From Coriobacteriales bacterium (lineage in GTDB: Bacteria > Actinomycetota > Coriobacteriia > Coriobacteriales > CADBOM01), in contig JBMNUM010000001.1 in the NCBI GenBank assembly GCA_050946275.1, positions 92,690 through 156,689 of the forward strand: 64,000 nt of DNA, read 5' to 3'. Below, piece after piece: positions 21,839 to 61,210 of the stretch (the first letter of the stretch is position 1; each line of letters opens with the position of its first letter). Under the pieces are notes generated by a model. The model ran no database searches, had not been told where the DNA came from, and was given only the letters and a program-made list of their open reading frames with translations. A program made the position numbers and the translations under genes.

Positions 21839-23893
21839 ATGAGCAGATACGATGACCACAGGGGGCGGCAGAACGGCCGCGGCTCTCGCACGCGCGATGG
21901 CCGCGGTAACGGTCGTCTGCGCGCCGATCGCCCCGCCCGCAGCCCCTACGAGGCGGGCATGTTCTCAGAGGGCGATTCCTCGCGCACCTCGTGGCTGCTC
22001 ATCGCCTTCGTCTTCATCGCCGTCGCCCTCGTCATCCGCCTCTTCGTGCTGCAGGTCGTCTTCGCCGACGAGTACCGCGCCGAGGCGGAGACCCATCACA
22101 CCTCCGACGAGGTCGTGTACGCCAAGCGCGGCACGATCTACGACCGCAACGGCAAGATCCTCGCGATGACCGTCGATGCGAAGACCATCTACGCCAACCC
22201 CAAGGAGATCGTCGACGCATCGGCGACGGCCAGCCAGCTCGCGGAGATCCTCGGCGGCGAGCCCGCCGACTACATGGAGGCGCTCACGAAGGATACGACG
22301 TTCTCCTACGTGCTGCGCCAGGGCGAGGTGAAGCTCGCAGAGAACCTCCAAGCGCGCAAGAAGGAGCTCCAGGAGCAGATCGATGCGCTGCAGCTCCCCG
22401 AGGGCTCGTCGCCCCCGGCGAATCCGCTCGCCGGTATCTACTACCTCGACGACACGCGCCGCGAGTACCCGTACGGCGAGGTCGCCGGCCAGATCATCGG
22501 ATACGTGGGCAGGGACGGCAAGGGCCTCTCCGGCCTCGAGCTCCAATACGACAACATCCTGCGCGGCCGCGATGGACACCGCGTCGTCGAGCAGGGCAAG
22601 GGCGGACTGCAGATTCCCGGCGGCACGAAGCTCGACCAGGAGGCCGTGGATGGAACCGACATCACGGTTTCGATCGATATCGAGCTCCAGCAGTACGCGG
22701 AGCACGAGCTGCTGGCCCAGCAGGCCGAGTCGAATGCCGAGGGTGGCGAGATCACCATCCTCGACGGCGCCACGGGCGAGATCTACGCGTCCGCCTCTCT
22801 GCCGCTCTACGACCTGAACCACGTGGACGAGGCCGCCGAGGGCGCCTCGAACCTCAAGACCGTCTCGCACGTGTACGAGCCCGGCTCGGTCTTCAAGATC
22901 GTCACCGCCGCGGCTCTGCTCGAGGAGGGCGCGGTCGACCCCGACAAGAAGATCGAGGTTCCCAACTCGCTCGAGATCGGCGATCGCACCATCACCGACG
23001 CGCACGACCATGCGGTCATGCAGTGGAACCTGCGCGACATCATCCGCGAGTCCTCGAACATCGGCATCAGCATCCTCGAGGACGAGATCGACCGCGAGAC
23101 GTTCGCCTCCTACCTCGACAAGTTCGGCTTCGGGAAGAAGACCGGCGTCGACTATCCCGGCGAGAGCGAGGGAATCCTCACGGACGTGCGCCATTGGTAC
23201 GACGTGCTCGAGGCCAACGTCGCGTTCGGCCAGAGCATCAGCGTCACGTCCGTGCAGATGGCGGGCTTCTACGGCATGGTCGCCAACGACGGCATGTACA
23301 TCCAGCCGCACTTCCTGATCGACTACCCGCACACGAGCCAGGAGGTCACGTACGAGAGCACGCGCCTGCTGTCGCCCGAGACCTGCGCCACGCTCAAGGA
23401 GATGATGATAGACGTCGTCGAGGAGGGCACGGGAACGCTCGCCCAGATCGACGGATTCGACGCGGCCGGCAAGACGGGCACGGCGCAGCAGGTCGTCGAC
23501 GGGCAGTACTCCGACGGCAAGTACACCATCACCTTCGACGGCATGCTGGCCAACACGAACAGCAAGCTCGTCTGCATCATCGCGATGAACAATCCCGGGA
23601 CGAGCGCGGCCATGCCGCTGTTCTCCTCGGTGATGGCGTTCGCCGCCGACCTGTACTCGATCATCCCGTACGCCCCGCCGTCGGCCGACGCCGATACGGG
23701 GGACGCCGACGAGTCCGGCGAGTACGATGAGGGTGAGAGCTCGTCCGATGAGGATTCGTCCGACGAGAGCTCCTACGATGAGAATTACGACGCCTCGTAT
23801 GACGAAGGCCCGGGAGAATCCGAGGGAGATTCCCCGAACGCCGACGGCTCGTACGAGGGCAATGGCGGCGAGCAGAACGGCAAGGCCGCATAG
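21839..23893 (+). CDS. ftsI: Class B penicillin-binding protein / peptidoglycan D,D-transpeptidase FtsI.
   Basis: 684 aa. N-terminal TM, PBP dimerisation domain and transpeptidase motifs (SVFK, SSN, KTGTA). Arg/Gly-rich N-terminal extension and acidic Ser/Asp/Glu/Tyr C-terminal tail. Confidence 0.9.
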   Translation: MSRYDDHRGRQNGRGSRTRDGRGNGRLRADRPARSPYEAGMFSEGDSSRTSWLLIAFVFIAVALVIRLFVLQVVFADEYRAEAETHHTSDEVVYAKRGTIYDRNGKILAMTVDAKTIYANPKEIVDASATASQLAEILGGEPADYMEALTKDTTFSYVLRQGEVKLAENLQARKKELQEQIDALQLPEGSSPPANPLAGIYYLDDTRREYPYGEVAGQIIGYVGRDGKGLSGLELQYDNILRGRDGHRVVEQGKGGLQIPGGTKLDQEAVDGTDITVSIDIELQQYAEHELLAQQAESNAEGGEITILDGATGEIYASASLPLYDLNHVDEAAEGASNLKTVSHVYEPGSVFKIVTAAALLEEGAVDPDKKIEVPNSLEIGDRTITDAHDHAVMQWNLRDIIRESSNIGISILEDEIDRETFASYLDKFGFGKKTGVDYPGESEGILTDVRHWYDVLEANVAFGQSISVTSVQMAGFYGMVANDGMYIQPHFLIDYPHTSQEVTYESTRLLSPETCATLKEMMIDVVEEGTGTLAQIDGFDAAGKTGTAQQVVDGQYSDGKYTITFDGMLANTNSKLVCIIAMNNPGTSAAMPLFSSVMAFAADLYSIIPYAPPSADADTGDADESGEYDEGESSSDEDSSDESSYDENYDASYDEGPGESEGDSPNADGSYEGNGGEQNGKAA

Positions 23894-27950: not shown

Positions 27951-29429
27951 ATGTCTAGTGGTCTGGGAAACGTCCTTGTCGTCGGGCTGGGCAAGAGCGG
28001 GCTGGCCGCCGCGCGGTTTGCCATCGCGCATCTCGGCGCCCCCGCCGATGACGCCTTCGCCGTCGAGAGCCTCACGGTCTACGGCGGCAAGTCCTCCGAT
28101 GCCGCGGTCGCGTTCGCGGCCGAGGCTGCCGAGCACGGCGTCGAGGTCATCCTCGACTGCGAGGACGTGAAGGGTTCCTACGACCTCGCCATCATCAGCC
28201 CGGGCATCTCGGTCAACAGCGGCTTCTTCCAAAGCGCCGCCGCATCCTCGCGCGAGGTCGTGACCGAGCCCGAGCTCGCGTTCCGATTCTCGCCGCGCCG
28301 TTGGATCGGCATCACGGGAACGAACGGCAAGACGACCACGACGACGCTCACGGCGCACCTTCTCGCCGAGGCCGGTGCGGGGAGCATCGCATGCGGCAAC
28401 ATCGGCCTGCCCTGCATCGAGGCGGCCTGCGCGCGCACCGACGACTCGTACCTTGTGGCCGAGCTCTCATCGTTCCAGCTCGAGTCGATGCCGACGTTCG
28501 CGCCCCGTGCGGCGATCCTGCTCAACATCACCCCCGACCACATCGAGTGGCACGGGAGCCTCGACGCCTATGCCGCGGCCAAGGAGAAGATCTTCTCCAA
28601 CCTGGGCGCGAGCGGCTACGCCATCGTCGATTGCACCGCGGAGAACACGCGTGCACTCGCCGGTCGCCTGGCCGCCCGCGGCGACGCGGTCGTCGCCATC
28701 GGCGGTCCCGACGGGTTCGGTGACGCCTACCACCCGCTCGGGGACCCTGCCGCCTGCGGGCGCGGGGGGTGCGCCTATCTGGACGGCGGCGTGCTGACCG
28801 TCGTGCTCGATGGGGCTGCGCATCGACTCGCCGCTGCCGGCGAGCTTTCCATCAAGGGCGATCACAACATGCAAAACGCGCTCGCGGCAAGCGCCGCCGC
28901 GCTCATCGCGGGCGTCGACGACGTGCAGCTTGCCGCCGGCCTGCGCTCGTACCATCCCGTCGAGCACCGGGTCGAGCCCTGCGGCGACGTGGGTGGGGTG
29001 CTCTTCTACAACGATTCGAAGGCGACGAACACCGATGCCGCCATCAAGGCCCTCACGGCGTTCCCCGGCCAGCGCGTCTGGATGCTTCTGGGCGGGCACG
29101 ACAAGGGCACGGATCTCTCCGAGCTGGTCGGCGCCTGCACGGATTCCTGCACGGGCGTCATCTGCTTCGGCGAGGCTGCGGGTCGCTTCCTCGCGGCGTT
29201 TGCGGACGCCGGCGCGGAGGCTGCGGGACTGCAGGTCATCGAGGCGCCCCACATGCGCGAGGCGTTCGCGGCGGCATGCGATGTGGCCCAGGACGGCGAC
29301 GTCGTGCTGCTCTCCCCGGCCTGCTCGTCGTTCGACGAGTTCTCCTCGTACGAGGAGCGCGGCAAGCTGTTCAAGCAGCTGGTGGCCGACCTGCGCGGCA
29401 CGGTCGCGGAGGAGGTCGTCCATGGTTGA
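27951..29429 (+). CDS. murD: UDP-N-acetylmuramoylalanine--D-glutamate ligase.
   Basis: 492 aa. GITGTNGKTTTT P-loop and NDSKATN motif. Confidence 0.9.
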   Translation: MSSGLGNVLVVGLGKSGLAAARFAIAHLGAPADDAFAVESLTVYGGKSSDAAVAFAAEAAEHGVEVILDCEDVKGSYDLAIISPGISVNSGFFQSAAASSREVVTEPELAFRFSPRRWIGITGTNGKTTTTTLTAHLLAEAGAGSIACGNIGLPCIEAACARTDDSYLVAELSSFQLESMPTFAPRAAILLNITPDHIEWHGSLDAYAAAKEKIFSNLGASGYAIVDCTAENTRALAGRLAARGDAVVAIGGPDGFGDAYHPLGDPAACGRGGCAYLDGGVLTVVLDGAAHRLAAAGELSIKGDHNMQNALAASAAALIAGVDDVQLAAGLRSYHPVEHRVEPCGDVGGVLFYNDSKATNTDAAIKALTAFPGQRVWMLLGGHDKGTDLSELVGACTDSCTGVICFGEAAGRFLAAFADAGAEAAGLQVIEAPHMREAFAAACDVAQDGDVVLLSPACSSFDEFSSYEERGKLFKQLVADLRGTVAEEVVHG

Positions 29430-30675
29430 AGAGCAGGACAAGGAGCGTAGGGCCGCACGCAGGAGCCGCGACAAGGGCCGCGGCGACATGGCCGTGCTCA
29501 CCCCGCGCCTGACCTTCATCATCTCCGTCGCGCTGCTGCTGGCGATCGGGCTCGTCATGGTGTACTCGGCATCCGCTCCCGAGGCGTACCGCGACTTCAA
29601 CGACACGGCCTACTTCCTCAAGCGCGAGGTCATCTGGGTCGCCGCGGGCGTCGTCCTGACGTTCATCGTGGCGAAACTTCCCTTCGGGTTATGGAACCGC
29701 AAGGTGCTCTGGGTGATCTGGGGCATCATGGTGGCGATCCTGATATTCAACCACATCGCGGGCTTCGTCGGTCTGGGAGCGCGCCGCTGGATCATGATCG
29801 GGCCGTTCACGTTCCAGCCCTCGGAGTTCGCCAAGATCGCGATGATGCTGCTCGCGGCGTCCATCGTCATAGGCTACCGCAACGGCGAGTTCCGCTCATT
29901 CGGGCAGTTCGCCGTCGTGTTCATCGGCAGCATCGCGATACCCACGTTCCTCATCCTGGCCCAGCCCGACCTCGGCACCGTCCTCGTCGCCCTGGTGGGC
30001 ATCCTCGCCGTCCTGTGGTTCGGCGAGTTCTCCAAGCGCATCATCGCCGCGGTGATCATCGCCGTGATCGTGCTCGCCCTTCTGGCCATCGTGTCGCAGG
30101 GATTCCGTTCCGACCGCATCGCGGCGTGGATCCATCCCGAGGACGATCCCGCGGGCACGGGCTACCAGATCCTCAACTCCTTCTACGCCTTCTCCGAGGG
30201 AGGCGTCTTCGGCGTGGGACTGGGCAACTCGACGCAGAAGTACCTGTACCTGCCCTTCGCCTACAACGACTTCATCTTCGCCGTCATCGGCGAGGAGTTC
30301 GGGCTCATCGGATGCGCCGTCATCATCGTGCTGTTCCTCGTGATGCTGCGCTCGGCGCTCCAGATTGGCGAGATGGCGTCGAGCCCCTTCGCGAAGATCA
30401 TCGCGTGCTCGTCGGCCACGGTCATCGCGTTCCAGGCCTTCTTGAACATGGCCTGCACCATCGGGGCGTTACCCGTCACGGGCAAGCCCCTGCCCTTCAT
30501 CAGCTACGGTGGCTCGTCCATGTTCGCGACGATGATCCTCGTCGGCTTCGTGCTGGCGGTCTCGTTCCAGAGCTCGGACGACACCGCGACGCGCCGCAGG
30601 AAGGACATCCGCGTGTACGAGACCGGATCGGGCGGCTCGTCGTCGTATCCATCGAGAACCAGAAGAGGTGCCTGA
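29422..30675 (+). CDS. ftsW: SEDS-family peptidoglycan glycosyltransferase FtsW.
   Basis: Start MVEEQDK at ATG 29422, overlapping the murD end. Ten predicted TM segments, with FQPSEFAKI and PFISYGGSSM motifs. Confidence 0.9.
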   Translation: MVEEQDKERRAARRSRDKGRGDMAVLTPRLTFIISVALLLAIGLVMVYSASAPEAYRDFNDTAYFLKREVIWVAAGVVLTFIVAKLPFGLWNRKVLWVIWGIMVAILIFNHIAGFVGLGARRWIMIGPFTFQPSEFAKIAMMLLAASIVIGYRNGEFRSFGQFAVVFIGSIAIPTFLILAQPDLGTVLVALVGILAVLWFGEFSKRIIAAVIIAVIVLALLAIVSQGFRSDRIAAWIHPEDDPAGTGYQILNSFYAFSEGGVFGVGLGNSTQKYLYLPFAYNDFIFAVIGEEFGLIGCAVIIVLFLVMLRSALQIGEMASSPFAKIIACSSATVIAFQAFLNMACTIGALPVTGKPLPFISYGGSSMFATMILVGFVLAVSFQSSDDTATRRRKDIRVYETGSGGSSSYPSRTRRGA

Positions 30676-51894: not shown

Positions 51895-52012
51895 TAAATG
51901 CCGAAAGTCAATCTTAAAAGTTAGAAAACGGGTAAAATAAACCTGTTGATGGCAAAACGGCCGCAACGCCTTGCAAACGAACACCAACCAGACCACGCAA
52001 GGAGCTGCAGAG

Positions 52013-53890
52013 TTGGACTCCAACCTCCTGCTCGATCGATATGTGATACAGGAAACCCTTGGCTCGGGGAGCGGGGGCGTGGTCAATCTCGCCTGGGACA
52101 CGCGCATGCAGCGCAACGTCGCCATCAAGCGCATCGAGCTTCCCGTGCACCAGGACCTCGCGCAGATCCCCGGCCTCGAGGAGGCGCGCACCGGTGCGCA
52201 GCTGCACGACTCGCGCATCGTCAACGTCTTCGACTTCGAGGTCACCGACGACGAGGCACTGCTCATCATGGAGTTCGTCGACGGCATCTCGCTCGGCGCG
52301 CTCATGGACCGAATCCCGCGCATGCTCACGCTCGACGAGATCGCGTCCATCGTGCAAAACGTCGGCAAGGCGCTGCAGCATGCGCACCAGCATCACGTGC
52401 TGCACCTCGACGTCAAGCCCGACAACATCCTCATCGACACCACGGGCATGAGCAAGATGACCGACTTCGGCATCGGCAGGCTCGCCAGGCTCGGCGGCTT
52501 CGGCGAGGCCACGGCCGGCACGATCGGCTACATGCCGCCCGAGCAGCTGCGCGGCGAGGAGATCACGGAGAAGAGCGACCAGTGGGCGTTCGCCGTGGTG
52601 GTCTACGAGCTGCTGGTGGGGGAGGACCCCTTCATCCGCGACACGTTCGACGAGTCGCTCCAGGCGATGCAGCATGAGGAGATACCGCTGCCCTCGGCCT
52701 CCGACGAGGAGCTCGACCCCGCCATTGACGATGTGATCTTCAAGGCGCTCAGCCTCGACCCGGCCGAGCGCTATCCGTCCGTCGCGAAGTTCGTCGCGGC
52801 GCTGAACCCGTATCTCGGCACGGCCCGCACGGGCAGGAGCCGCCTCGGCAAGCTCGTCTCGGTCTTCGGAGACGAGATCGCCCTCGGCAGTCCCGAGGAG
52901 CGCATGGCGGCCATCCGGGACATGGATGACCTCTACGAGCCGGGCGACCAGCTCCAGTTCGACGAGATGTACTACGACGACGAGACCGAGCCGCTCGACG
53001 TGCAGCCCGACTACGACGTCGACGGCTACGGCGAGGATGCGATCGACCCCTACGACGAGCGCCGGGTCGTGAAGCGCCGCAGCTACAAGAACATCCTGGG
53101 TGACCGCGGCGTATCCATCATCGCGCGCGTCGTCGCGGCGGCGTGCAACGCGGCGCTCGCGTATCTGGGCATGGTCTCGATCCCACTGCCGCTTCCGTGG
53201 GCGGGTTGGGCGCTCGTGGGCATCGCCGCAATCGTGGGTGTCATCATCCCGCGCGTGGCCCCGCTCGTCTCGATGGCCATCCTCGCCTTCGGCATGGTGT
53301 GCGCCGACTGGATACCCCAGGCGGTCATCCTCATCATCGCCGGGCTGGCGTGGTGGATCTTCGTCGGCCGCAAGTCGAACGGCGCGGCGAACTGCGGCGT
53401 GCTGGCCCCCGCGGCCGGACTCCTCGGCTTCGCCTACCTGCAGCCCCTGTTCACCGGCTACCTCCTGCGCTGGCGCGAGGCGCTGGTGACGGGCCTGTTC
53501 GGCGTGGCGCTCATGCTGCTCGTCTACCCGCTCACCGGCTCGGGCGAGCTGTTCAAGACGTCGCTCGGGTTCATCCCCAACACGACCGCCATGAGGGCGT
53601 CACTTGTGGAGGTTTATTGGAGCGCGGAGCTGTGGATATACGTCGTTGCATGGCTTGTGGCTACTCTCGCCATGTCTGTGCTTGCCAACCGCGGAAGTAA
53701 AGCGCTCTCCATGGTTGGCGCGGTTATATCGACGGCTATAATTGTTATTTCGAGAGTGATGTACGGCATCGCGGGAGGAACGCTCCCCGCGCTCATGACG
53801 GTGGATTTCGTCTTCGCGGTGCTCCTGCCCCTGGTCATCGTGTGCGTCGCGGTTTGGATTCACGCGCCCAGGGCAGGCGGAAGCAACTGA
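52013..53890 (+). CDS. Hanks-type Ser/Thr protein kinase with a C-terminal polytopic (about 8 TM) membrane domain.
   Basis: GSGSGGVV...VAIKRI, HLDVKPDNIL, DFG and GYMPPEQ kinase motifs. The C-terminal about 270 aa are almost entirely hydrophobic helices. Start TTG 52013 (after GGAG) is preferred over the ORF-track TTG 51971. Confidence 0.85.
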   Translation: MDSNLLLDRYVIQETLGSGSGGVVNLAWDTRMQRNVAIKRIELPVHQDLAQIPGLEEARTGAQLHDSRIVNVFDFEVTDDEALLIMEFVDGISLGALMDRIPRMLTLDEIASIVQNVGKALQHAHQHHVLHLDVKPDNILIDTTGMSKMTDFGIGRLARLGGFGEATAGTIGYMPPEQLRGEEITEKSDQWAFAVVVYELLVGEDPFIRDTFDESLQAMQHEEIPLPSASDEELDPAIDDVIFKALSLDPAERYPSVAKFVAALNPYLGTARTGRSRLGKLVSVFGDEIALGSPEERMAAIRDMDDLYEPGDQLQFDEMYYDDETEPLDVQPDYDVDGYGEDAIDPYDERRVVKRRSYKNILGDRGVSIIARVVAAACNAALAYLGMVSIPLPLPWAGWALVGIAAIVGVIIPRVAPLVSMAILAFGMVCADWIPQAVILIIAGLAWWIFVGRKSNGAANCGVLAPAAGLLGFAYLQPLFTGYLLRWREALVTGLFGVALMLLVYPLTGSGELFKTSLGFIPNTTAMRASLVEVYWSAELWIYVVAWLVATLAMSVLANRGSKALSMVGAVISTAIIVISRVMYGIAGGTLPALMTVDFVFAVLLPLVIVCVAVWIHAPRAGGSN

Positions 53891-53950
53891 AAAGGACAAC
53901 TTAAATGAAGCAGCAGTGGCACGACGGAATACTTGAGGGGGAGTTCTAAA

Positions 53951-54904
53951 GTGGGTATCTTCTCTGCTTTCGAGGGTAAAGTCGATGACGCGTTCGACGG
54001 CATGGCGGGCGCGGTGTTCAAGTCTCCCATCGAGCCGACCCAGATAGCGAAGCGATGCGAGAAGCAGATGCACCGCAACAAGCTCGTGGGCAAGGGCGTG
54101 CAGTATGCGCCGACGCTCTACACCGTCTTGGTGAACGTCGACGACGACAGGCGCCTGTTCGGGTTCTATCCGACGATGGCCGGCGAGCTCGAGACCTATC
54201 TCGTGGGCGCGTCCGACGACGCGGGGCTCTCGCTCGAGTGCCGCCCGCTCGTCCGCTTCATCGCCGACGAGGGCCTCAAGAGCGGCAAGTTCGATGTCGT
54301 CGCCGAGGTCGTCACCTCCAACATCATCTCCGAGCTGCGCGAGGAGGAGGCCGAGTACTACGGCCTCGACGTGTTCCAGAAGGGACCGGCGCGCCAGTCC
54401 GGATCCGGCAGGGGCGGCAGGCGCCCGCGCGGCACGAAGCCGAAGAGCGGCGAGAAGCGCGGCGGCCGCCAGTCGCACGTGCAGGTCATGCCCGTGCAGC
54501 CCATCGACAACGGCCAGGACTTCCGCGACGACGACGTCGCGACCGAGCCCGTCGCCGACGAGCGCTACGAAGAGCGCGAGGACGACGGCTACCGCGGCGG
54601 CCACGCGAACTACGGCTTCCAGCCGGCGGTGCTCGTGGACGCGCGTTCCGGCGACGAGTATCCCATCGATTACGACAGCGTGATCATCGGCCGTGATGAC
54701 ACGAGCGACATCGCCCTGCCCGACGCGAGCGTCTCGCGCGCCCATGCGCGCATCAGCCGCGACGAGCTGGGCAAGTGGAGCATCACGGACCTCAACTCCA
54801 CGAACGGCACGTCCGTCAACGGGCGCAAGATCTCCAACGCGCGCCTCTCGTATGGCGACCAGGTGACCGTCGGCACGACGATCCTGCTGTTCCAGAAAGG
54901 ATAA
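53951..54904 (+). CDS. fhaA: FhaA-like protein (DUF3662 N-terminal domain plus C-terminal FHA domain).
   Basis: GTG start after GAGGGGGAG. VGIFSAFEGKVDDAFDG...AKRCEKQM is the N-domain. The C-terminal FHA reads IIGRDDTSDIALPDASVSRAHARI...TDLNSTNGTSVNG. Confidence 0.85.
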   Translation: MGIFSAFEGKVDDAFDGMAGAVFKSPIEPTQIAKRCEKQMHRNKLVGKGVQYAPTLYTVLVNVDDDRRLFGFYPTMAGELETYLVGASDDAGLSLECRPLVRFIADEGLKSGKFDVVAEVVTSNIISELREEEAEYYGLDVFQKGPARQSGSGRGGRRPRGTKPKSGEKRGGRQSHVQVMPVQPIDNGQDFRDDDVATEPVADERYEEREDDGYRGGHANYGFQPAVLVDARSGDEYPIDYDSVIIGRDDTSDIALPDASVSRAHARISRDELGKWSITDLNSTNGTSVNGRKISNARLSYGDQVTVGTTILLFQKG

Positions 54905-54907
54905 GCG

Positions 54908-55321
54908 TTGATAGACGTTGCCCTGTGGATCGGCCGCATCCTCCTCATAGCGCTGCTGTACCTCTTCCTCTTCGCGCTCATGCGCACGGGGATCAGGCTC
55001 GTCAGCGACCAGCGCAAGAAGGAGGGTGGCTGGACGATTACCGTCGAACATGGCCCCAAGGAGCTCAAGGGCGTGAAGATCAAGGTTTCCGGCCCTGTTG
55101 TGGTCGGCAGGTCGCCGGGTGCCGACATCGTCATCGGCGACTCCTTCGTGTCGGGCAAGCACGCCCGCTTCACGATCGCCGGCAACGACCTCCTCGCCGA
55201 GGACCTGCAGTCGACGAACGGCACGCTGCTCAACGGCCAGCCGCTGCTCCAGCCCACGGTGCTGCACAAGAACGACATGATCGTCATCGGCGACGTGCAG
55301 ATCAAGGTTGGTAGGGAATGA
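54908..55321 (+). CDS. fhaB: FhaB/FipA-like membrane-anchored FHA-domain protein.
   Basis: TTG start. N-terminal TM. FHA core VVGRSPGADIVIGDSFVSGKHARF...DLQSTNGTLLNG. Confidence 0.8.
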   Translation: MIDVALWIGRILLIALLYLFLFALMRTGIRLVSDQRKKEGGWTITVEHGPKELKGVKIKVSGPVVVGRSPGADIVIGDSFVSGKHARFTIAGNDLLAEDLQSTNGTLLNGQPLLQPTVLHKNDMIVIGDVQIKVGRE

Positions 55322-56544
55322 GCCCTCGCAAAGCCAAGGCGCAGCCCCCGATCACGGTCGGTGCCAAGACCGATGTCGGCCAGGTGCGTGCGCAGAACGA
55401 AGATTCCATGCTCGTGAAGCTGCCCCTGCTCGTCGTTGCCGACGGCATCGGCGGTCAGGAGGCGGGCGAGATCGCGAGCCAGATCGCCATCGAGACGATG
55501 GAGATCGAGGCTCCCGTGAGCGCTGACGCCGAGCAGCTCGGAGACGCCGTCGTGCATGCGAACGCGGCGGTCATGCGCGCGGCCGAAGAGGGTCGCGGCA
55601 GGCCGGGCATGGGCACCACCATGACGGCCGCCTACATCGAGCACTCGACGCTCGCGGTCGCCCAGGTCGGCGACTCGCGCGCTTACCGTATCCGCGCGGG
55701 CGAGATCGAGCAGCTCACGCACGACCACTCGCTCATCGCGGCCATGGTCGACAGCGGCCAGATCACCGAGGAGGAGGCGCGCACGCATCCGTCGCGCTCC
55801 ATCATCACCCGCGCGCTCGGGTCCGATCCCGACATGCGCCCGGACCTCTTCGAGTTCGACCTGCGCGACGGCGACCGCATCATCCTGTGCTCCGACGGCC
55901 TGCATGGCATGATCCCGGACGACCACATCAAGCTCATCATGGACGAGTATCCCGACGCCCAGGAGGCGGCGGATGCGCTCGTTGCTGCGGCGAACGCGGC
56001 CGGCGGCATGGACAACGTCACCGTCATCGTCGCCAACGTCGACAAGGTCAGCCCCGCCGAGGAGGTCAAGATGAAGCGCTCGCGGCGCTTCTCGGCCATC
56101 ATCTTCGCGGTCGTGGCGGCCGTTCTGGTCGTGGCGGCTATCGGCGGGTTCACGTTCTTCATCAACAGCTCGGCGTACCTCATCGCGGAGGATGGGGTGG
56201 TCGCCGTGTACAAGGGCCGGCTCGACAACTCGTCGGGCCTGGGCAAGAGCGAGCTCCAGTACGCCTCGGACGTGAAGGTGGACAAGCTGCCCGACATCAC
56301 GCAGGAGAAGCTCGCCGAGGGCGTGCAGTTCGGCTCCCTCGAGGAGGCCGAGGAGACGCTCGAGAGCTATCGCGTGCAGATTCAGGTGGACGAGAAGTCC
56401 GCCGAGGAGGCCAAGAAGAAGGAGGCCGCCGCCAAGAAGGAGGTCGAGGCCAAGGAGGCCGAGCGGGCCGCAAAGCTCGCCGCCATGGAGGCGGAGTACT
56501 ACGGCTACGACGAAGAGTACTACTACGACGAGGATGAGGGCTAG
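55318..56544 (+). CDS. pstP: PP2C-family Ser/Thr phosphatase (PstP-like) with a TM segment and an extracytoplasmic tail.
   Basis: GAKTDVGQVRAQNEDS, VADGIGG and DNVTVIV PP2C motifs. TM FSAIIFAVVAAVLVVAAIGGFTFFI. The tail is Lys/Glu/Ala-rich and then Tyr/Asp/Glu-rich. Confidence 0.88.
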   Translation: MSPRKAKAQPPITVGAKTDVGQVRAQNEDSMLVKLPLLVVADGIGGQEAGEIASQIAIETMEIEAPVSADAEQLGDAVVHANAAVMRAAEEGRGRPGMGTTMTAAYIEHSTLAVAQVGDSRAYRIRAGEIEQLTHDHSLIAAMVDSGQITEEEARTHPSRSIITRALGSDPDMRPDLFEFDLRDGDRIILCSDGLHGMIPDDHIKLIMDEYPDAQEAADALVAAANAAGGMDNVTVIVANVDKVSPAEEVKMKRSRRFSAIIFAVVAAVLVVAAIGGFTFFINSSAYLIAEDGVVAVYKGRLDNSSGLGKSELQYASDVKVDKLPDITQEKLAEGVQFGSLEEAEETLESYRVQIQVDEKSAEEAKKKEAAAKKEVEAKEAERAAKLAAMEAEYYGYDEEYYYDEDEG

Positions 56545-56556
56545 GGCTAGAGGCTG

Positions 56557-59295
56557 ATGTCAAGCTGGAGGTCGACAGAGCTGCTGCTGATTTTGGGTGC
56601 AACCCCCGTGGTCGCGCTCATCTCCATCATGTCCATCATCACCGGTGGCAACGCGATCACGTTCGAGACGCTCGCAGTGCCGATCGGCCTGTTCCTCGCG
56701 TTCATCGCGGCGCATTTCGCCGTGTGCAGGCTGGCGCCCAACGCGGACAACGCGCTGCTGCCCATCACGTACCTGCTCTCGGGTATCGGCATCGCGTTCG
56801 TGTTCCGCCTCGCGCCCGATTTGGCCACGAACCAGCTCATATGGCTGTTCGCGGGCATCGCGCTCATGGTGCTGACGCTCGTGTTCGTGCCATCGCTCTC
56901 GGCGCTCTCGCGCTACAAGTACACGATGATGGTGTTCGGCTTGCTGCTCCTGCTGCTGCCGATCGTCGCCGGCGTGGAGATCTACGGCTCCAAGATCTGG
57001 CTGTCCATCGGCGGTTTCTCGTTCCAGCCGGGCGAGCTCGCCAAGATCCTCATCGTGCTGTTCCTCGCCGCGTACCTCGCCGAGAACCGCGAGATGCTCT
57101 CCGTGTCGTCGCGGCGCATCCTGGGCATGCAGCTGCCGGACTTCAAGACGCTGTTCCCGCTCGTGTTCATGCTCCTGGTTTCGATCGTGATCGTGGTCTT
57201 CGAGCGCGACCTCGGTAGCGCGCTGCTGTTCTTCGGCCTGTTCCTCGTGATGATCTACGTGTGCACGGGCCGCATCAGCTTCGTCGTGATCAGCCTGATC
57301 GTCGTGGGCATCGTCGGCGTGCTGCTCTACCTCTCGTTCTCGCACATCCAGGCGCGCTTCGCCGTCTGGATCGACCCGTTCGAATACGCGCAGGACACGG
57401 GATACCAGCTCGTGCAGGCGCTCTACTCCATGGCCGACGGCGGCATGTTCGGCGTCGGCATCGGCAAGGGCATGCCGACGACGATCCCCATCGTCGAGAG
57501 CGACTTCATCTTCGCGGCGTTCGCCGAGGAGATGGGCCTGCTCGGCGCCTCGGGCGTCCTGCTGCTCTTCGTGCTGTTCGCGATTCGCGGCTTCGCCACG
57601 GCGGCCCGCGCTCGTCGCGACGTCGACGCCTTCGCGGCGGTGGGCCTCACGGCGGCCATCTCGCTGCAGGCGTTCGTCATCGTCGGCGGCGTGACCGGCT
57701 TCATCCCGTTGACGGGTGTGACGTTGCCCTTCATGAGCCAGGGTGGCTCATCGCTCATCTCGAGCTTCATCATCGTGGGACTCCTGCTGCGTACCGGCGA
57801 CGACGGAACCGGCACCGCGGAGGAGCTGACGATGTTCTCGCGCAGCATGGACGGCGGAACGCTCGGCAGGCGTGCGCTCGGCAAGCGCCTCACGCGCATC
57901 CTCACCGTGTTCTGCATCCTGTTCGCGCTGCTCATCGCCAACCTCACGAACATCATGGTCGTGAGGGCCGAGGCGCTGCAGACGATGCCGTCGAACAACC
58001 ACACGCTCGCGCATCACGAGCAGATCGAGCGCGGCTCGATCACGACGGCCGACGACGTGACGCTCGCCGAGTCCGTCCTGCAAGACGACGGATTCTACGC
58101 GCGCGAGTACCCGCAGGGCGACCTCGCGCCGCAGGTGCTGGGCTACTACTCGCTGCGCTACGGCACGGCGGGCCTCGAGGCGTCGCTCGACCAGACGCTC
58201 ACCGGCAACCGCAACTTCTCGACCATCACAGGTGCTATCACATCGCTGTCGGGCGGGACGAACCCGGGCAACAGCGTGCAGCTGACCATCGACTCGCGCA
58301 TCCAGCGGGCCGCGCAGGACGCTCTGGGCGGCTACGATGGCGCGTGCGTCGTGCTCGACCCCGAGACGGGCGCCGTGCTCGGCATGGCATCCGGCCCGGA
58401 CTACGACGTCAACGAGGTCGAGGACCTGCTCGCCGGCGACGTCGAGACCGACGCGCTGTTCAACCGCGCGACGCAGGGTCTCTACTCGCCCGGTTCGACG
58501 TTCAAGACGGTGACGCTCGCCACGGCGATCGAGAACAAGATCGCGACGCTCGACACCGAGTACTACTCGCCCGGCGAGCTCGAGATCGGCGGTGGAAAGG
58601 TCACCTCGTTCGACGGCAACAACCTGGGCACCATCACGCTGCAGGAGGCGTTCGCCTACTCGAGCAACACGGTGTTCGCGCAGGTCGGCGAGGAGATTGG
58701 CGACAAGATGCTCGTCGCGGGCTCGAACGCCTTCGGCTTCGGCAAGACCGTGTCGACGGACTTCAACATCCGCGTCTCGCTCATGCCCGACCCGAACGAG
58801 ATGATCCTGTGGGAGACCGCGTGGGCGGCTGTCGGACAGCCCGTCGGCGAGCACGACAGCCCGGCGGGTCCGCAGGCGACGCCCATCCAGATGGCGATGG
58901 TCGCGGCGTGCATCGCCAACGACGGCAAGATCATGACGCCGTATCTCGTCGACAACGTGAAGAGCCCGGAGGGCGCCGTGGTGACCACGACGAAGCCGAG
59001 CGAGTTCGCGAGTCCCATCAGCGCCGAGACGGCATCGAAGGTCCGCACCGCCATGGAGGACGTGGTGGATTACGGAACCGGTACCGGTGCCTATGTCGAG
59101 GGCGCCATCGTGTACGGCAAGACCGGCACGGCCCAGACGAGCATCCACGACGACAACTCGTGGTTCATCGGCACGGCCGAGGCCGGCGGCCGCAAGGTCA
59201 CGATCGCGATCGTGCTCGAGGACTACGACGAGCCAGTGACGTTCAAGGCCGCGGATGTGTTCGAGACCTCGCTCGAGGCTTTGGGGGCTTTGTGA
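56557..59295 (+). CDS. Fused SEDS glycosyltransferase (RodA/FtsW family) and class B PBP transpeptidase (PbpA-like) in one ORF.
   Basis: 912 uninterrupted codons. Residues 1-400 are polytopic with FQPGELAKI and LPFMSQGGSS. A TM (ILTVFCILFALLIANL) follows, then a PBP dimerisation domain and transpeptidase motifs STFK, SSN and KTGTA. Confidence 0.85.
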   Translation: MSSWRSTELLLILGATPVVALISIMSIITGGNAITFETLAVPIGLFLAFIAAHFAVCRLAPNADNALLPITYLLSGIGIAFVFRLAPDLATNQLIWLFAGIALMVLTLVFVPSLSALSRYKYTMMVFGLLLLLLPIVAGVEIYGSKIWLSIGGFSFQPGELAKILIVLFLAAYLAENREMLSVSSRRILGMQLPDFKTLFPLVFMLLVSIVIVVFERDLGSALLFFGLFLVMIYVCTGRISFVVISLIVVGIVGVLLYLSFSHIQARFAVWIDPFEYAQDTGYQLVQALYSMADGGMFGVGIGKGMPTTIPIVESDFIFAAFAEEMGLLGASGVLLLFVLFAIRGFATAARARRDVDAFAAVGLTAAISLQAFVIVGGVTGFIPLTGVTLPFMSQGGSSLISSFIIVGLLLRTGDDGTGTAEELTMFSRSMDGGTLGRRALGKRLTRILTVFCILFALLIANLTNIMVVRAEALQTMPSNNHTLAHHEQIERGSITTADDVTLAESVLQDDGFYAREYPQGDLAPQVLGYYSLRYGTAGLEASLDQTLTGNRNFSTITGAITSLSGGTNPGNSVQLTIDSRIQRAAQDALGGYDGACVVLDPETGAVLGMASGPDYDVNEVEDLLAGDVETDALFNRATQGLYSPGSTFKTVTLATAIENKIATLDTEYYSPGELEIGGGKVTSFDGNNLGTITLQEAFAYSSNTVFAQVGEEIGDKMLVAGSNAFGFGKTVSTDFNIRVSLMPDPNEMILWETAWAAVGQPVGEHDSPAGPQATPIQMAMVAACIANDGKIMTPYLVDNVKSPEGAVVTTTKPSEFASPISAETASKVRTAMEDVVDYGTGTGAYVEGAIVYGKTGTAQTSIHDDNSWFIGTAEAGGRKVTIAIVLEDYDEPVTFKAADVFETSLEALGAL

Positions 59296-59377: not shown

Positions 59378-61210
59378 GTGATCAACAGGGTTATAGCTTC
59401 TCGATATCGCATTATCGAGCGAATCGGCATCGGGGGCATGGCCGAGGTCTACAAGGCGCAGGACGAGGTCCTGGGACGCGTGGACGCGGTCAAGGTGCTT
59501 CTCCCGCAGTATGCCACCGACCCGACATTCGCACGGCGGTTCAGGCAGGAGGCGCAGGCAGCTGCGAATCTCTCGAGCCCGTACATCGTGAGCATCTACG
59601 ACTGGGGTCTCGACGGCGAGACGTATTACATCGTCATGGAGTACGTCCGCGGCGTCGACCTCAAGACCGCCATCACGCAGCGCGGCGCCATCGACCAGCG
59701 CAAGGTCGCGCAGATCGCGTCGCAGGTGTGCTCCGGTCTCGCCGTCGCGCATGACAACGACGTCATCCACCGCGACATCAAGCCGCAGAACGTCATGATC
59801 CAGCCCGATGGCAACATCAAGATCATGGACTTCGGCGTCGCGCGTGCCGGCAACTCGACGATGACGCAGACGGGTTCCGTGCTCGGCACGGCCAACTACG
59901 TCTCGCCCGAGCAGGCGCAGGGCAAGGTGCCCGGCGCGGCATCGGACCTGTACTCCCTCGGCATCATGATGTACGAGGCCGTCACGGGCAGGCTGCCCTT
60001 CGAGGGCTCGGACGCCATCTCGGTGGCGCTCAAGCAGGTCAACGAGATCCCCGAGCCGCTGAGCGTGCACAACCCGCAGATCAGCCCGGACTTCGAGGCC
60101 ATCATCATGAAGGCCCTCGAGAAGGATCCGGCCAAGCGCTTCGCCAGCGCGGACGAGATGCGCGGCGCGCTCAACAACTTCCTCAACGGCAAGCCCGTGC
60201 GCATCGCCGGCGTGACCGGCATGGGCGCGGCCGCGACGCAGGTCCTCCCGGATGGCACGAAGACCAAGGTGCTCGGCCCCGATGCCAGCACGACCGCCGT
60301 CATGCCCGTCTCCAGCTACGGCCAGGGTGGCGGCAAGGGCGGCGTCAAGACCCCCGACAAGGACAAGAAGAAGCTCTCGGGCAAGAAGCGCGCCCTCATC
60401 GCCATCATCACCGTCGTGGCCATCGCGGCGATCGCGGCCGGCGTGTACTTCTTCATGGGAGGCAACTCGCTCGCCCAGGTGCCCAACGTCGTGGGCGAGA
60501 CCAAGGAGAGCGCGAAGAGCATCATCGAGGAGGCCGGCTTCGTGGTCGGCACCGAGAAGGAAGAGTACAGCGACACGGTCGAGGAGGGCCTCGTGATGCG
60601 GCAGTCGCCCAAGGCGAACTCCGAGCTCGCCAAGGGCAAGACGATCGACCTCGTCTACTCGAAGGGTCCCAAGCCGCCCGACCAGGTGAAGGTCCCCGAC
60701 TTGCGCAACCTGACAGCCGAGGAGGCCGAGAAGGCGCTCTCGGACAAGAACCTGCACGGCAGGGCGGGTGATGCGGTCTACGACGACGAGATCGAGGCCG
60801 GCAAGGTCGTGAAGCAGGACCCGGCTGCGGGCGAGACGGTCGACGAGGGCTCGACGATCACGTTCTACATCTCGCTTGGGCCCGAGCCGGTGACGAGCGT
60901 CACCGTGCCGAGCGTCATAGGCGATTCGGAGTCCGGCGCCGCGTGGGATCTCGAGCAATACGGCTTGTACCCGGATTACTACTACGTGTACTCCGACACC
61001 GCCAGCGCGGGCGTCGTCATCGATCAGTACCCGGGCGCGGGCGCCGAGGTCTCGCCGGGCTCGTACATCCAGGTGACCGTCTCGCAGGGTCCGGAGCCGA
61101 CGCCCGAGCCGGATGAGGGCGGCACGGACGGCTCGACCGATGGATCCACGGACGACAGCGGCAACACGGACGCGAACAACAACAACGGCAACGGCAACAC
61201 GAACCAGTAG
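59378..61210 (+). CDS. pknB: Ser/Thr protein kinase PknB with three extracellular PASTA domains.
   Basis: GTG start. GIGGMAEVYKA, HRDIKPQNVM, DFG and NYVSPEQ motifs. TM IAIITVVAIAAIAAGVYFF. Three PASTA-like repeats begin at VPNVVG, VPDLRN and VPSVIG. Confidence 0.9.
   Translation: MINRVIASRYRIIERIGIGGMAEVYKAQDEVLGRVDAVKVLLPQYATDPTFARRFRQEAQAAANLSSPYIVSIYDWGLDGETYYIVMEYVRGVDLKTAITQRGAIDQRKVAQIASQVCSGLAVAHDNDVIHRDIKPQNVMIQPDGNIKIMDFGVARAGNSTMTQTGSVLGTANYVSPEQAQGKVPGAASDLYSLGIMMYEAVTGRLPFEGSDAISVALKQVNEIPEPLSVHNPQISPDFEAIIMKALEKDPAKRFASADEMRGALNNFLNGKPVRIAGVTGMGAAATQVLPDGTKTKVLGPDASTTAVMPVSSYGQGGGKGGVKTPDKDKKKLSGKKRALIAIITVVAIAAIAAGVYFFMGGNSLAQVPNVVGETKESAKSIIEEAGFVVGTEKEEYSDTVEEGLVMRQSPKANSELAKGKTIDLVYSKGPKPPDQVKVPDLRNLTAEEAEKALSDKNLHGRAGDAVYDDEIEAGKVVKQDPAAGETVDEGSTITFYISLGPEPVTSVTVPSVIGDSESGAAWDLEQYGLYPDYYYVYSDTASAGVVIDQYPGAGAEVSPGSYIQVTVSQGPEPTPEPDEGGTDGSTDGSTDDSGNTDANNNNGNGNTNQ

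What the first reader, a model, noticed from the sequence alone, without database searches (positions are those of the whole stretch)
56557..59295. RodA-type SEDS polymerase and PbpA-type transpeptidase share one reading frame, with the PBP's own SD+ATG still present in-frame
Seen in sequence: there is no stop codon between the SEDS module (FQPGELAKI ... LPFMSQGGSS, ending near codon 400) and the class B PBP module (TM ILTVFCILFALLIANL; STFK, SSN, KTGTA). At the junction, a strong GGAGGAG (57819-57825) sits 6 nt upstream of an in-frame ATG (57832, codon 426, MFSRSMDGG...). That position is where a stand-alone pbpA would begin. Established knowledge: in the actinobacterial fhaA-fhaB-pstP-rodA-pbpA-pknA-pknB block, rodA and pbpA are normally separate genes whose products form a SEDS-bPBP complex. 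Inference: the locus may make a covalent 1:1 synthase, possibly alongside free PbpA from the internal start. By contrast, the divisome pair in this window (ftsW 29422-30675, ftsI 21839-23893) is unfused.
Basis: partly seen in the sequence, partly recalled or inferred. Interest (0 to 1): 0.6.

Follow-up and report, generated by a model that had tools for sequence, protein, structure and literature searches.

The report
Natural RodA–PbpA fused wall synthase
This gene really does encode a cell-wall glycan polymerase and its partner cross-linking enzyme as one 912-residue protein, but the fusion is a widespread, already catalogued architecture in Coriobacteriia, and the apparent leftover ribosome-binding site plus ATG at the joint looks like a strain-specific coincidence.

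Summary
Window 56557-59295 (+) is one uninterrupted 912-codon ORF. It carries an N-terminal SEDS (FtsW/RodA/SpoVE) module, a roughly 22-residue disordered cytoplasmic linker, a PBP membrane helix, a PbpA-type dimerisation domain and a transpeptidase domain. GGAGGAG (57819-57825) lies 6 nt upstream of the in-frame ATG at 57832.

The fusion is not an artefact. All 120 best protein hits and all 80 best genome loci carry the same single ORF; these include Collinsella, Olsenella, Eggerthella, Gordonibacter and Adlercreutzia. At least 121 of the top 150 50%-identity clusters are fused or span the joint, and one is from Armatimonadota. Catalytic residues of both modules are invariant.

The architecture is already known. 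NCBI annotates this exact protein. PDB entries from 2013-14 hold the transpeptidase halves of the Atopobium parvulum and Eggerthella lenta orthologues. A 2025 survey describes the Coriobacteriales fusion flanked by kinase and phosphatase genes. Engineered RodA-PBP2 fusions in the same domain order are functional.

The "retained SD+ATG" reading is not supported:
- No relative among 78 has a strong SD plus ATG in the linker.
- Relatives above 90% identity have lost the strong SD, in part through a synonymous change.
- Stand-alone PbpAs start about 15 residues downstream.
- SD+ATG sites are no more frequent in linkers than elsewhere in these genes.

The parts
56557..59295 (+). Single ORF encoding the 912-aa RodA::PbpA fusion. 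It is identical to NCBI MGI6220380.1, annotated 'FtsW/RodA/SpoVE family cell cycle protein' from a Coriobacteriales MAG.
56557..56736 (+). N-terminal extension of about 60 residues with two predicted helices (4-30 and 36-59). It lies ahead of the part that aligns to the canonical SEDS profile and to T. thermophilus RodA.
   Evidence: AF2 secondary structure. The Pfam match starts at residue 89, profile position 37. The RodA alignment starts at residue 77. That these are two extra TM helices is an inference.
56821..57792 (+). SEDS glycosyltransferase module (residues 89-412). The catalytic Asp is D316 (57502-57504). The E160/K163 pair lies in the FQPGELAK motif.
   Evidence: PF01098 at 253.8 bits. 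D316 aligns with T. thermophilus RodA D255, and E160/K163 with E108/K111. All three are invariant in 66 relatives.
57802..57867 (+). Cytoplasmic linker (residues 416-437) between the last SEDS helix (397-415) and the PBP membrane helix. It is predicted to be disordered.
   Evidence: pLDDT is below 50 for residues 421-435. The alignments are rich in indels: 26-72 aa in Coriobacteriia and 6-121 aa in the wider family. The flanks GD(D/E)GTG and VLGRxALGKRLT are conserved within Coriobacteriia.
57819..57825 (+). SD-like GGAGGAG, formed by the codons GCG GAG GAG (Ala-Glu-Glu). It is most likely incidental.
57832..57834 (+). In-frame ATG (Met426) in the linker. It is a candidate internal start but is not a conserved one.
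57868..57963 (+). bPBP membrane anchor helix (residues 438-469). Stand-alone PbpA homologues begin at the equivalent of about residues 440-444.
   Evidence: AF2 helix 438-469. Stand-alone proteins P0199, P0243 and P0252 align from query 440-444 and have N-terminal tails of 3-8 aa.
58030..58278 (+). PbpA-type dimerisation/pedestal domain (residues 492-574).
   Evidence: PF21922 at 69 bits.
58339..59229 (+). D,D-transpeptidase domain (residues 595-891) with S647-T-F-K650, S702-S-N704 and K855-T-G857.
   Evidence: PF00905 at 201.9 bits. The motif residues are invariant. Target TM-score is 0.91-0.95 to the A. parvulum and E. lenta structures and 0.83-0.87 to M. tuberculosis PBPA.
53933..54904 (+). 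fhaA (FhaA_N plus FHA domains), part of the same operon-like block.
54908..55321 (+). fhaB (small FHA protein).
55318..56544 (+). pstP (PP2C Ser/Thr phosphatase). It ends 12 nt before the start of the fusion.
59378..61210 (+). pknB-type Ser/Thr kinase with three PASTA repeats.

Best explanation
The locus encodes a naturally fused, single-chain SEDS-class B PBP peptidoglycan synthase. It is the RodA and PbpA of the actinobacterial fhaA-fhaB-pstP-rodA-pbpA-pknB block, joined head to tail.

The RodA module ends in the cytoplasm. A short, disordered and length-variable cytoplasmic linker leads into the PbpA membrane helix. That helix carries the pedestal and transpeptidase domains to the outside. 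Glycan polymerisation and cross-linking are therefore fixed at 1:1 stoichiometry and made from one translation event.

The linker appears to consist of the former RodA C-terminal tail joined to the former PbpA N-terminus, presumably after loss of the rodA stop codon in an ancestor. The fusion is old and under selection, since it is present throughout Coriobacteriia and in many more distant lineages.

The GGAGGAG + ATG in the linker of this particular genome is an incidental by-product of Ala-Glu-Glu codons next to a non-conserved Met. It is not a retained pbpA start.

What is shown:
- the continuous ORF and domain order;
- intact catalytic residues;
- conservation of the fusion;
- lack of conservation of the SD+ATG.

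What is inferred: membrane topology, enzymatic activity, the 1:1 covalent function, and the origin by stop-codon loss.
For: - The ORF is continuous and has three Pfam domains.
- All 120 best database hits are about 900-930 aa (one is 1129 aa) with the same three domains, at 54-72% identity.
- 80 of 80 genome loci across Coriobacteriales and Eggerthellales have one ORF of 900-1100 codons.
- Of the top 150 50%-identity cluster representatives, 98 are full-length fused and 23 are truncated but span the joint. Identity goes down to about 30%.
- Distant fused members keep the FhaA-FhaB-PP2C-fusion-PASTA kinase context.
- Catalytic D316, E160/K163, SxxK, SxN and KTG are invariant.
- The AF2 model has mean pLDDT 86.4, and only linker residues 421-435 fall below 50.
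- Engineered RodA-PBP2 fusions with the same order and short linkers largely restore rod shape in cells lacking pbpA-rodA. They also polymerise lipid II and bind bocillin (PMC6207328; PMC10449877).

Against the SD+ATG being functional or ancestral:
- 0 of 78 relatives have a >=5-nt SD core plus ATG in the linker.
- The sequence is GGC GAG GAA in relatives above 90% identity.
- There is no enrichment in linkers compared with the rest of the gene.
- Stand-alone PbpAs start about 15 residues downstream.
Against: - No protein-level data exist for any natural fusion, so cleavage in the linker or internal initiation cannot be ruled out.
- In this genome the string gcGGAGGAG-N6-ATG is nearly identical to the SD and start assigned here to ftsW at 29422 (gcGGAGGAG-N7-ATG). 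It is one of only two such 7-mer sites found in ORF sequence in the window, so it could be recognised by ribosomes.
- The mRNA around it is slightly less structured than the gene average: -16.2 versus -19.7 kcal/mol. This is unremarkable, since 24% of windows are as weak or weaker.
Confidence: 0.85

Rival explanations
1. Dual-product gene. Besides the full-length fusion, ribosomes initiate at Met426 using the internal GGAGGAG. This would give free PbpA (about 53 kDa, with a 21-residue cytoplasmic tail) in this lineage.
For: - A strong 7-nt SD lies 6 nt from an in-frame ATG.
- The same string serves as the SD assigned to ftsW in this genome.
- Only 2 such 7-mer sites occur in about 71 kb of ORF sequence.
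- Met426 and a weak GAGG are retained in the two relatives above 90% identity.
- Precedent from general knowledge: E. coli PBP1b and IF2 isoforms arise from internal starts.
Against: - It is not conserved. 0 of 78 relatives have a strong SD plus ATG in the linker, and only 3 have even a 4-nt core plus ATG.
- The two 71-72% identical relatives whose junction DNA was read (L001, L003) lack the SD, and Met426 itself is missing from several of the ~70% relatives.
- The strong SD is lost, in part through a synonymous GAG-to-GAA change, in relatives above 90% identity.
- The rate of SD+ATG in linkers is no higher than elsewhere in these genes.
- The site lies 15 residues upstream of where stand-alone PbpAs start.
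Confidence: 0.08
2. Polyprotein. The fusion is translated as one chain and then cleaved in the disordered linker to give separate RodA and PbpA that re-associate non-covalently.
For: - The linker is disordered and exposed in the cytoplasm.
- A purified engineered RodA-PBP2 fusion was partly cleaved within its linker (PMC6207328).
Against: - There is no conserved cleavage motif, and the middle of the linker is hypervariable in sequence and length.
- The cleavage seen in the engineered fusion was minor and was treated as degradation.
- Nothing explains why a fusion would be maintained so widely if it were then undone.
Confidence: 0.06
3. Assembly or sequencing artefact. A missed stop codon or frameshift between separate rodA and pbpA genes would create an apparent fusion.
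For: The window comes from a metagenome-assembled genome. Nothing else supports this reading.
Against: - The same continuous ORF occurs in 80 of 80 independent genomes, including isolates such as Collinsella aerofaciens and Adlercreutzia agrestimuris.
- It also occurs in five further full-length variants above 90% identity from other samples.
- The linker flanks are conserved as protein.
Confidence: 0.01

Closest known systems
Natural 'bifunctional class B' synthases (GTase FtsW/RodA/SpoVE + PBPA_dimer + TPase), for example the 931-aa protein of Senegalimassilia faecalis described in Microlife 2025 (PMC12516126)
   Same: The domain order and content are the same, the taxon is the same class (Coriobacteriia), and the gene is likewise flanked by Ser/Thr kinase and phosphatase genes. 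The window protein is another member of this group.
   Different: Nothing architectural differs. That paper counted 117 such proteins in InterPro. Here, at least 121 50%-identity clusters appear among the top 150 alone, so the family is much larger than reported. None has been studied experimentally as a full-length protein.
Crystal structures of the transpeptidase halves of the Atopobium parvulum (4JBF, 4N1X, 4QJG, 4R0Q, ...) and Eggerthella lenta (4MNR) 'peptidoglycan glycosyltransferases'
   Same: They match residues 469-898 at E of about 1e-124 with 46-48% identity and target TM-score 0.91-0.95. The 4MNR title, 'D,D-transpeptidase domain of peptidoglycan glycosyltransferase', points to a fused parent gene in E. 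lenta. For A. parvulum the fused parent is inferred from the entry names. Several entries are beta-lactam complexes.
   Different: Only the soluble half was solved. The SEDS module, the linker and the membrane helix are absent from these entries.
M. tuberculosis RodA (Rv0017c) and PbpA (Rv0016c) in the pstP operon
   Same: The operon context is the same (fhaA, fhaB, pstP, rodA, pbpA, PASTA kinase; PMC6554272). The PbpA-specific dimerisation domain PF21922 is shared, and the fold is similar (TMt 0.83-0.87, about 30% identity).
   Different: These are two separate genes and proteins. Here they are one chain, pknA is not between pbpA and pknB, and a second kinase sits upstream of fhaA instead.
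Engineered E. coli RodA-PBP2 fusions (Rohs et al. 2018, PMC6207328; Nygaard et al. 2023, PMC10449877) and the B. subtilis SEDS-bPBP fusion cited in the former
   Same: The order is the same: SEDS C-terminus, short cytoplasmic linker, bPBP N-terminus. These fusions are functional in vivo and active in vitro, which shows that this topology works.
   Different: Their linkers are artificial (GGGSx3, TSGSGSGS), and their pedestal is the canonical PBP_dimer type rather than the PbpA type.

Membership tests
SEDS glycosyltransferases (FtsW/RodA/SpoVE, PF01098) | Profile match above the curated threshold | tested here: met
   PF01098 scores 253.8 bits against a cut-off of 26.4, covering residues 89-412.
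SEDS glycosyltransferases (FtsW/RodA/SpoVE, PF01098) | Essential catalytic Asp in extracellular loop 4 (T. thermophilus RodA D255), and the Glu-Lys pair (E108/K111) | tested here: met
   D316 aligns with D255, and E160/K163 with E108/K111. All are invariant in 66 relatives. The identity of the key residues in T. thermophilus RodA is from my own knowledge.
SEDS glycosyltransferases (FtsW/RodA/SpoVE, PF01098) | Lipid II polymerase activity that is insensitive to moenomycin | not testable with these tools
   This needs biochemistry.
RodA or FtsW equivalogs (NCBIfam TIGR02210 / TIGR02614) | Score above the equivalog cut-off | tested here: not met
   rodA_shape scores 197.6 against 336.7, and ftsW scores 243.8 against 337.5. 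Calling the module 'RodA' rests on synteny with pstP/pknB, not on the equivalog models.
Class B PBP, PbpA type | Transpeptidase domain with SxxK, SxN and KTG, plus the PbpA dimerisation domain and an N-terminal membrane anchor | tested here: met
   PF00905 scores 201.9 bits and PF21922 scores 69 bits. S647/K650, S702/N704 and K855/G857 are invariant. The anchor is helix 438-469. The fold matches M. tuberculosis PBPA and the A. parvulum structures.
Natural SEDS-bPBP fusion family ('bifunctional bPBP', PMC12516126) | GTase and TPase modules in one polypeptide, conserved in relatives rather than a one-off | tested here: met
Natural SEDS-bPBP fusion family ('bifunctional bPBP', PMC12516126) | The full-length protein exists and is active in cells | not testable with these tools
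   No proteomic or biochemical data on a natural fusion were found.
Genes with a functional internal translation start (two products from one ORF) | SD-like sequence at a suitable distance from an in-frame start codon | tested here: met
   GGAGGAG, then 6 nt, then ATG at 57832.
Genes with a functional internal translation start (two products from one ORF) | Conservation of the SD and start codon in relatives, beyond what the protein sequence requires | tested here: not met
   0 of 78 relatives have it. The SD is lost in relatives above 90% identity, partly through a synonymous change. There is no enrichment over the background of the gene body.
Genes with a functional internal translation start (two products from one ORF) | The start coincides with the N-terminus of the stand-alone homologue | tested here: not met
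   Stand-alone PbpA representatives align from query residues 440-444, not 426.
Genes with a functional internal translation start (two products from one ORF) | Detection of the shorter product or of initiating ribosomes | not testable with these tools
   This needs initiation profiling or N-terminal proteomics.

The most novel reading that the evidence does not exclude
In this shallow lineage only (the window genome and its relatives above 90% identity), the linker has acquired a working internal start. GGAGGAG-N6-ATG is almost identical to the ftsW SD and start in this genome. One ORF would then yield both the covalent RodA::PbpA synthase and free PbpA, uncoupling the otherwise fixed 1:1 ratio.
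Probability: 0.08. Interest if true: 0.4.

Novelty: already known. Interest (0 to 1): 0.22.

Why it matters
The practical value is modest. Natural single-chain SEDS-bPBP synthases are ready-made 1:1 complexes for structural and biochemical work. They are also independent evolutionary support for the idea that SEDS and bPBP act as one obligate unit.

The family seen here is much larger than the 117 InterPro entries reported: at least 121 50%-identity clusters appear among the top 150 representatives. It stays embedded in the FHA/PP2C/PASTA-kinase block. One Armatimonadota member even fuses an FHA domain to the synthase. This hints that the phospho-signalling module acts directly on the enzyme.

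None of this is new in kind, and the specific claim of a retained internal start does not hold up.

Tried and rejected
- **Sequencing artefact.** Rejected, because every relative is fused. My first motif-based script wrongly dropped several loci and mis-picked the ORFs for L029 and L074. Listing the ORFs directly showed fused ORFs of 921 and 961 aa.
- **SD+ATG as a relic.** Tested by junction alignment, by a DNA-level scan of 78 relatives, by relatives above 90% identity and by a background rate. Rejected as a conserved feature.
- **Local mRNA unfolding around 57832.** Unremarkable: -16.2 kcal/mol against a gene mean of -19.7 +/- 4.5, and 24% of windows are as weak or weaker.
- **A solved single-chain SEDS-bPBP in the PDB.** None was found. 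8TJ3 is deposited as separate chains, and Foldseek hits cover only the PBP half.
- **Table S11 of PMC12516126 and Arora et al. 2018 (PMC5925798).** Neither is held. My recollection that M. tuberculosis RodA is phosphorylated on a C-terminal Thr is therefore unverified and is not used as evidence.
- **Naming the taxa of the distant fused clusters.** Only one of ten carried a name, Armatimonadota.
- **Contacts between the PBP helix and the SEDS module in the AF2 model.** Could not be inspected, because coordinates are not exposed.
Full report
**Observation.** The window carries one uninterrupted ORF at 56557-59295 (+) of 912 codons. GGAGGAG occupies 57819-57825, followed by 6 nt (ctgacg) and an in-frame ATG at 57832, which is codon 426. 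Pfam places FTSW_RODA_SPOVE at residues 89-412, PBP_dimer_2 (the PbpA-specific pedestal) at 492-574 and Transpeptidase at 595-891. Neither the RodA nor the FtsW NCBIfam equivalog cut-off is reached, so 'RodA' is a name based on synteny. The neighbours are a Ser/Thr kinase, FhaA, FhaB, a PP2C phosphatase, the fusion, and a PASTA kinase. This is the block reported as conserved across Actinobacteria (PMC6554272). The window's ftsI and ftsW are separate genes and are the only other paralogues in the window.

**Is the fusion real?** Yes.
- The 120 best hits among 5.8 billion proteins are almost all about 900-930 aa (one is 1129 aa). All have the same three domains at 54-72% identity, and they are named from Coriobacteriales, Eggerthellaceae, Adlercreutzia and Raoultibacter.
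- A scan of one genome per species returned 587 relatives. The 80 best match query residues from about 1-25 through about 888-912 in one piece. They include Collinsella aerofaciens, Olsenella, Atopobiaceae, Eggerthella, Gordonibacter, Adlercreutzia agrestimuris and Denitrobacterium.
- All 80 contain a single ORF of 900-1100 codons.
- Five further full-length variants above 90% identity from other samples are also fused.
- In a library clustered at 50% identity, 98 of the top 150 representatives are full-length fusions and 23 more are truncated but span the joint. Identity goes down to about 30%. Only 22 are SEDS-only and 6 are PBP-only.
- Distant members at 38-42% identity keep the FhaA-FhaB-PP2C-fusion-PASTA kinase neighbourhood.
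- One Armatimonadota protein additionally carries an FHA domain at its N-terminus.

**Anatomy and likely mechanism.**
- The catalytic Asp of SEDS enzymes (T. thermophilus RodA D255) aligns with D316, and the E108/K111 pair with E160/K163.
- These residues, together with S647xxK650, S702xN704 and K855TG857, are invariant in 66 relatives.
- An AlphaFold2 model built on that alignment has mean pLDDT 86.4 and pTM 0.64. The last SEDS helix is 397-415 and the PBP anchor helix is 438-469. The only stretch below pLDDT 50 is 421-435.
- The linker is rich in Arg and Lys on its C-terminal side, which fits a cytoplasmic location (inference).
- Within Coriobacteriia the linker flanks are conserved (GD(D/E)GTG and VLGRxALGKRLT). 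The middle varies from 26 to 72 residues with many indels. In the wider family the range is 6-121 residues with no shared sequence.
- Stand-alone RodA homologues end 5-35 residues after the last helix. Stand-alone PbpA homologues start 3-8 residues before their membrane helix, at the equivalent of query residues 440-444.
- The linker is therefore best read as the old RodA tail joined to the old PbpA N-terminus (inference).
- Engineered E. coli RodA-PBP2 fusions with the same order and short flexible linkers largely restore rod shape in cells lacking pbpA-rodA. They also polymerise lipid II and bind bocillin (PMC6207328; PMC10449877).
- The most likely function is a covalent 1:1 glycan polymerase and cross-linker.

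**The internal SD+ATG.** This is the only part of the finding that could have been new, and it does not survive comparison.
- Met426 is kept only in the closest relatives. Many others have Met two positions earlier, or none at all.
- At the DNA level, none of 78 relatives has a >=5-nt SD core 4-11 nt upstream of an in-frame ATG in the linker. Only three have even a 4-nt core plus ATG.
- Two relatives above 90% identity read GGC GAG GAA where the window reads GCG GAG GAG. The strong SD is therefore lost, partly through a synonymous change, while the protein is essentially unchanged.
- The 71-72% identical relatives L001 and L003 have no SD at all.
- Across 79 fused genes, SD(>=5)+ATG sites occur at 0.035 per kb outside the linker. 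That predicts 0.42 in all linkers together, and one is observed: this window. For >=4-nt cores, 6.7 are expected and 4 are observed.
- Local mRNA structure around 57832 is unremarkable.
Only two in-frame GGAGGAG+ATG sites were found in ORF sequence. The other is the site taken as the ftsW start, which has almost the same string.
- Ribosomes of this organism could therefore plausibly use the site. I put that at about 8%.

**What is already known.**
- NCBI annotates this exact protein (MGI6220380.1) as an FtsW/RodA/SpoVE family protein.
- The transpeptidase halves of the Atopobium parvulum and Eggerthella lenta orthologues were crystallised in 2013-14. They were deposited under the name 'peptidoglycan glycosyltransferase', and one title reads 'D,D-transpeptidase domain of peptidoglycan glycosyltransferase'.
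- A 2025 survey (PMC12516126) describes a 931-aa TPase + PBPA_dimer + FtsW/RodA/SpoVE protein in Senegalimassilia faecalis (Coriobacteriales), flanked by Ser/Thr kinase and phosphatase genes. It lists 117 such 'bifunctional bPBPs' in InterPro.
- I found no experimental work on a full-length natural fusion.

**Verdict.**
- Novelty is 'already known', and interest is low (0.22).
- The residual value lies in the size of the family, which is far larger than reported, and in its tight linkage to the FHA/PP2C/PASTA-kinase module.

Noticed in passing
L083 6001-9177 (Armatimonadota MAG JBKBRF010000053.1; protein P0138): A 1058-aa protein carries FHA + FTSW_RODA_SPOVE + PBP_dimer_2 + Transpeptidase. 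This amounts to an FhaB::RodA::PbpA triple fusion placed directly after an FhaA gene. It is a Rosetta-stone hint that the small FHA protein acts physically on the synthase.
   Followed up: partly
L084 4041-10607; L085 154-8567; L086 1285-8817: Fused relatives at only 38-42% identity keep FHA-protein and PP2C genes next to the fusion. L084 and L085 show the full FhaA-FhaB-PP2C-fusion-PASTA kinase order. L086 has a non-PASTA kinase upstream and a 1271-aa Tubulin_2 (PF13809) gene immediately downstream on the opposite strand.
   Followed up: partly
Linker region of L019, L027, L028, L030-L033, L035-L036, L039-L080 (Collinsella, Olsenella, Atopobiaceae): These lineages have an insertion of roughly 20-45 aa in the cytoplasmic linker. 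It carries a recurring 'HG(S/K)HAR-G ... (T/S)(P/A)ESGVLGRVAL' motif that is conserved across genera. Its function is unknown.
   Followed up: no
window 29406-29424 versus 57817-57834: The site taken as the ftsW start is preceded by gcGGAGGAGgtcgtccATG, inside the 3' end of the upstream ORF (probably murD; not tested). This is nearly the same string as the internal site gcGGAGGAGctgacgATG in the fusion linker.
   Followed up: partly
window 51950-53890 (+): A second Ser/Thr kinase without PASTA repeats sits upstream of fhaA. In mycobacteria a pknA lies between pbpA and pknB instead. The same arrangement is seen in close relatives L081 and L082 and in L085. The true start codon of this ORF was not determined.
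   Followed up: partly
window 56557-56736 (+), residues 1-60: The SEDS module has two predicted extra N-terminal helices ahead of the canonical ten-helix core. This would give 12+1 membrane helices in the fusion. The count is inferred from AF2 secondary structure only.
   Followed up: no
window 57802-57822 (+), residues 416-422 (D-G-T-G-T-A-E; the motif starts at G414, 57796): The GD(D/E)GTG motif at the start of the linker is conserved across Coriobacteriia. Its Thr is a candidate phospho-site for the adjacent PASTA kinase and PP2C, with FHA proteins as readers. This is pure inference. My recollection of a C-terminal phospho-Thr in M. tuberculosis RodA could not be verified because the paper is not held.
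   Followed up: no
L009, L017, L027 (record titles Acidaminococcaceae, Melainabacteria, Paludibacteraceae): Three loci have 52-55% identical fused genes and Coriobacteriia-like linkers, yet they sit in MAGs labelled as unrelated phyla. This is most likely mis-binned contigs rather than horizontal transfer.
   Followed up: no
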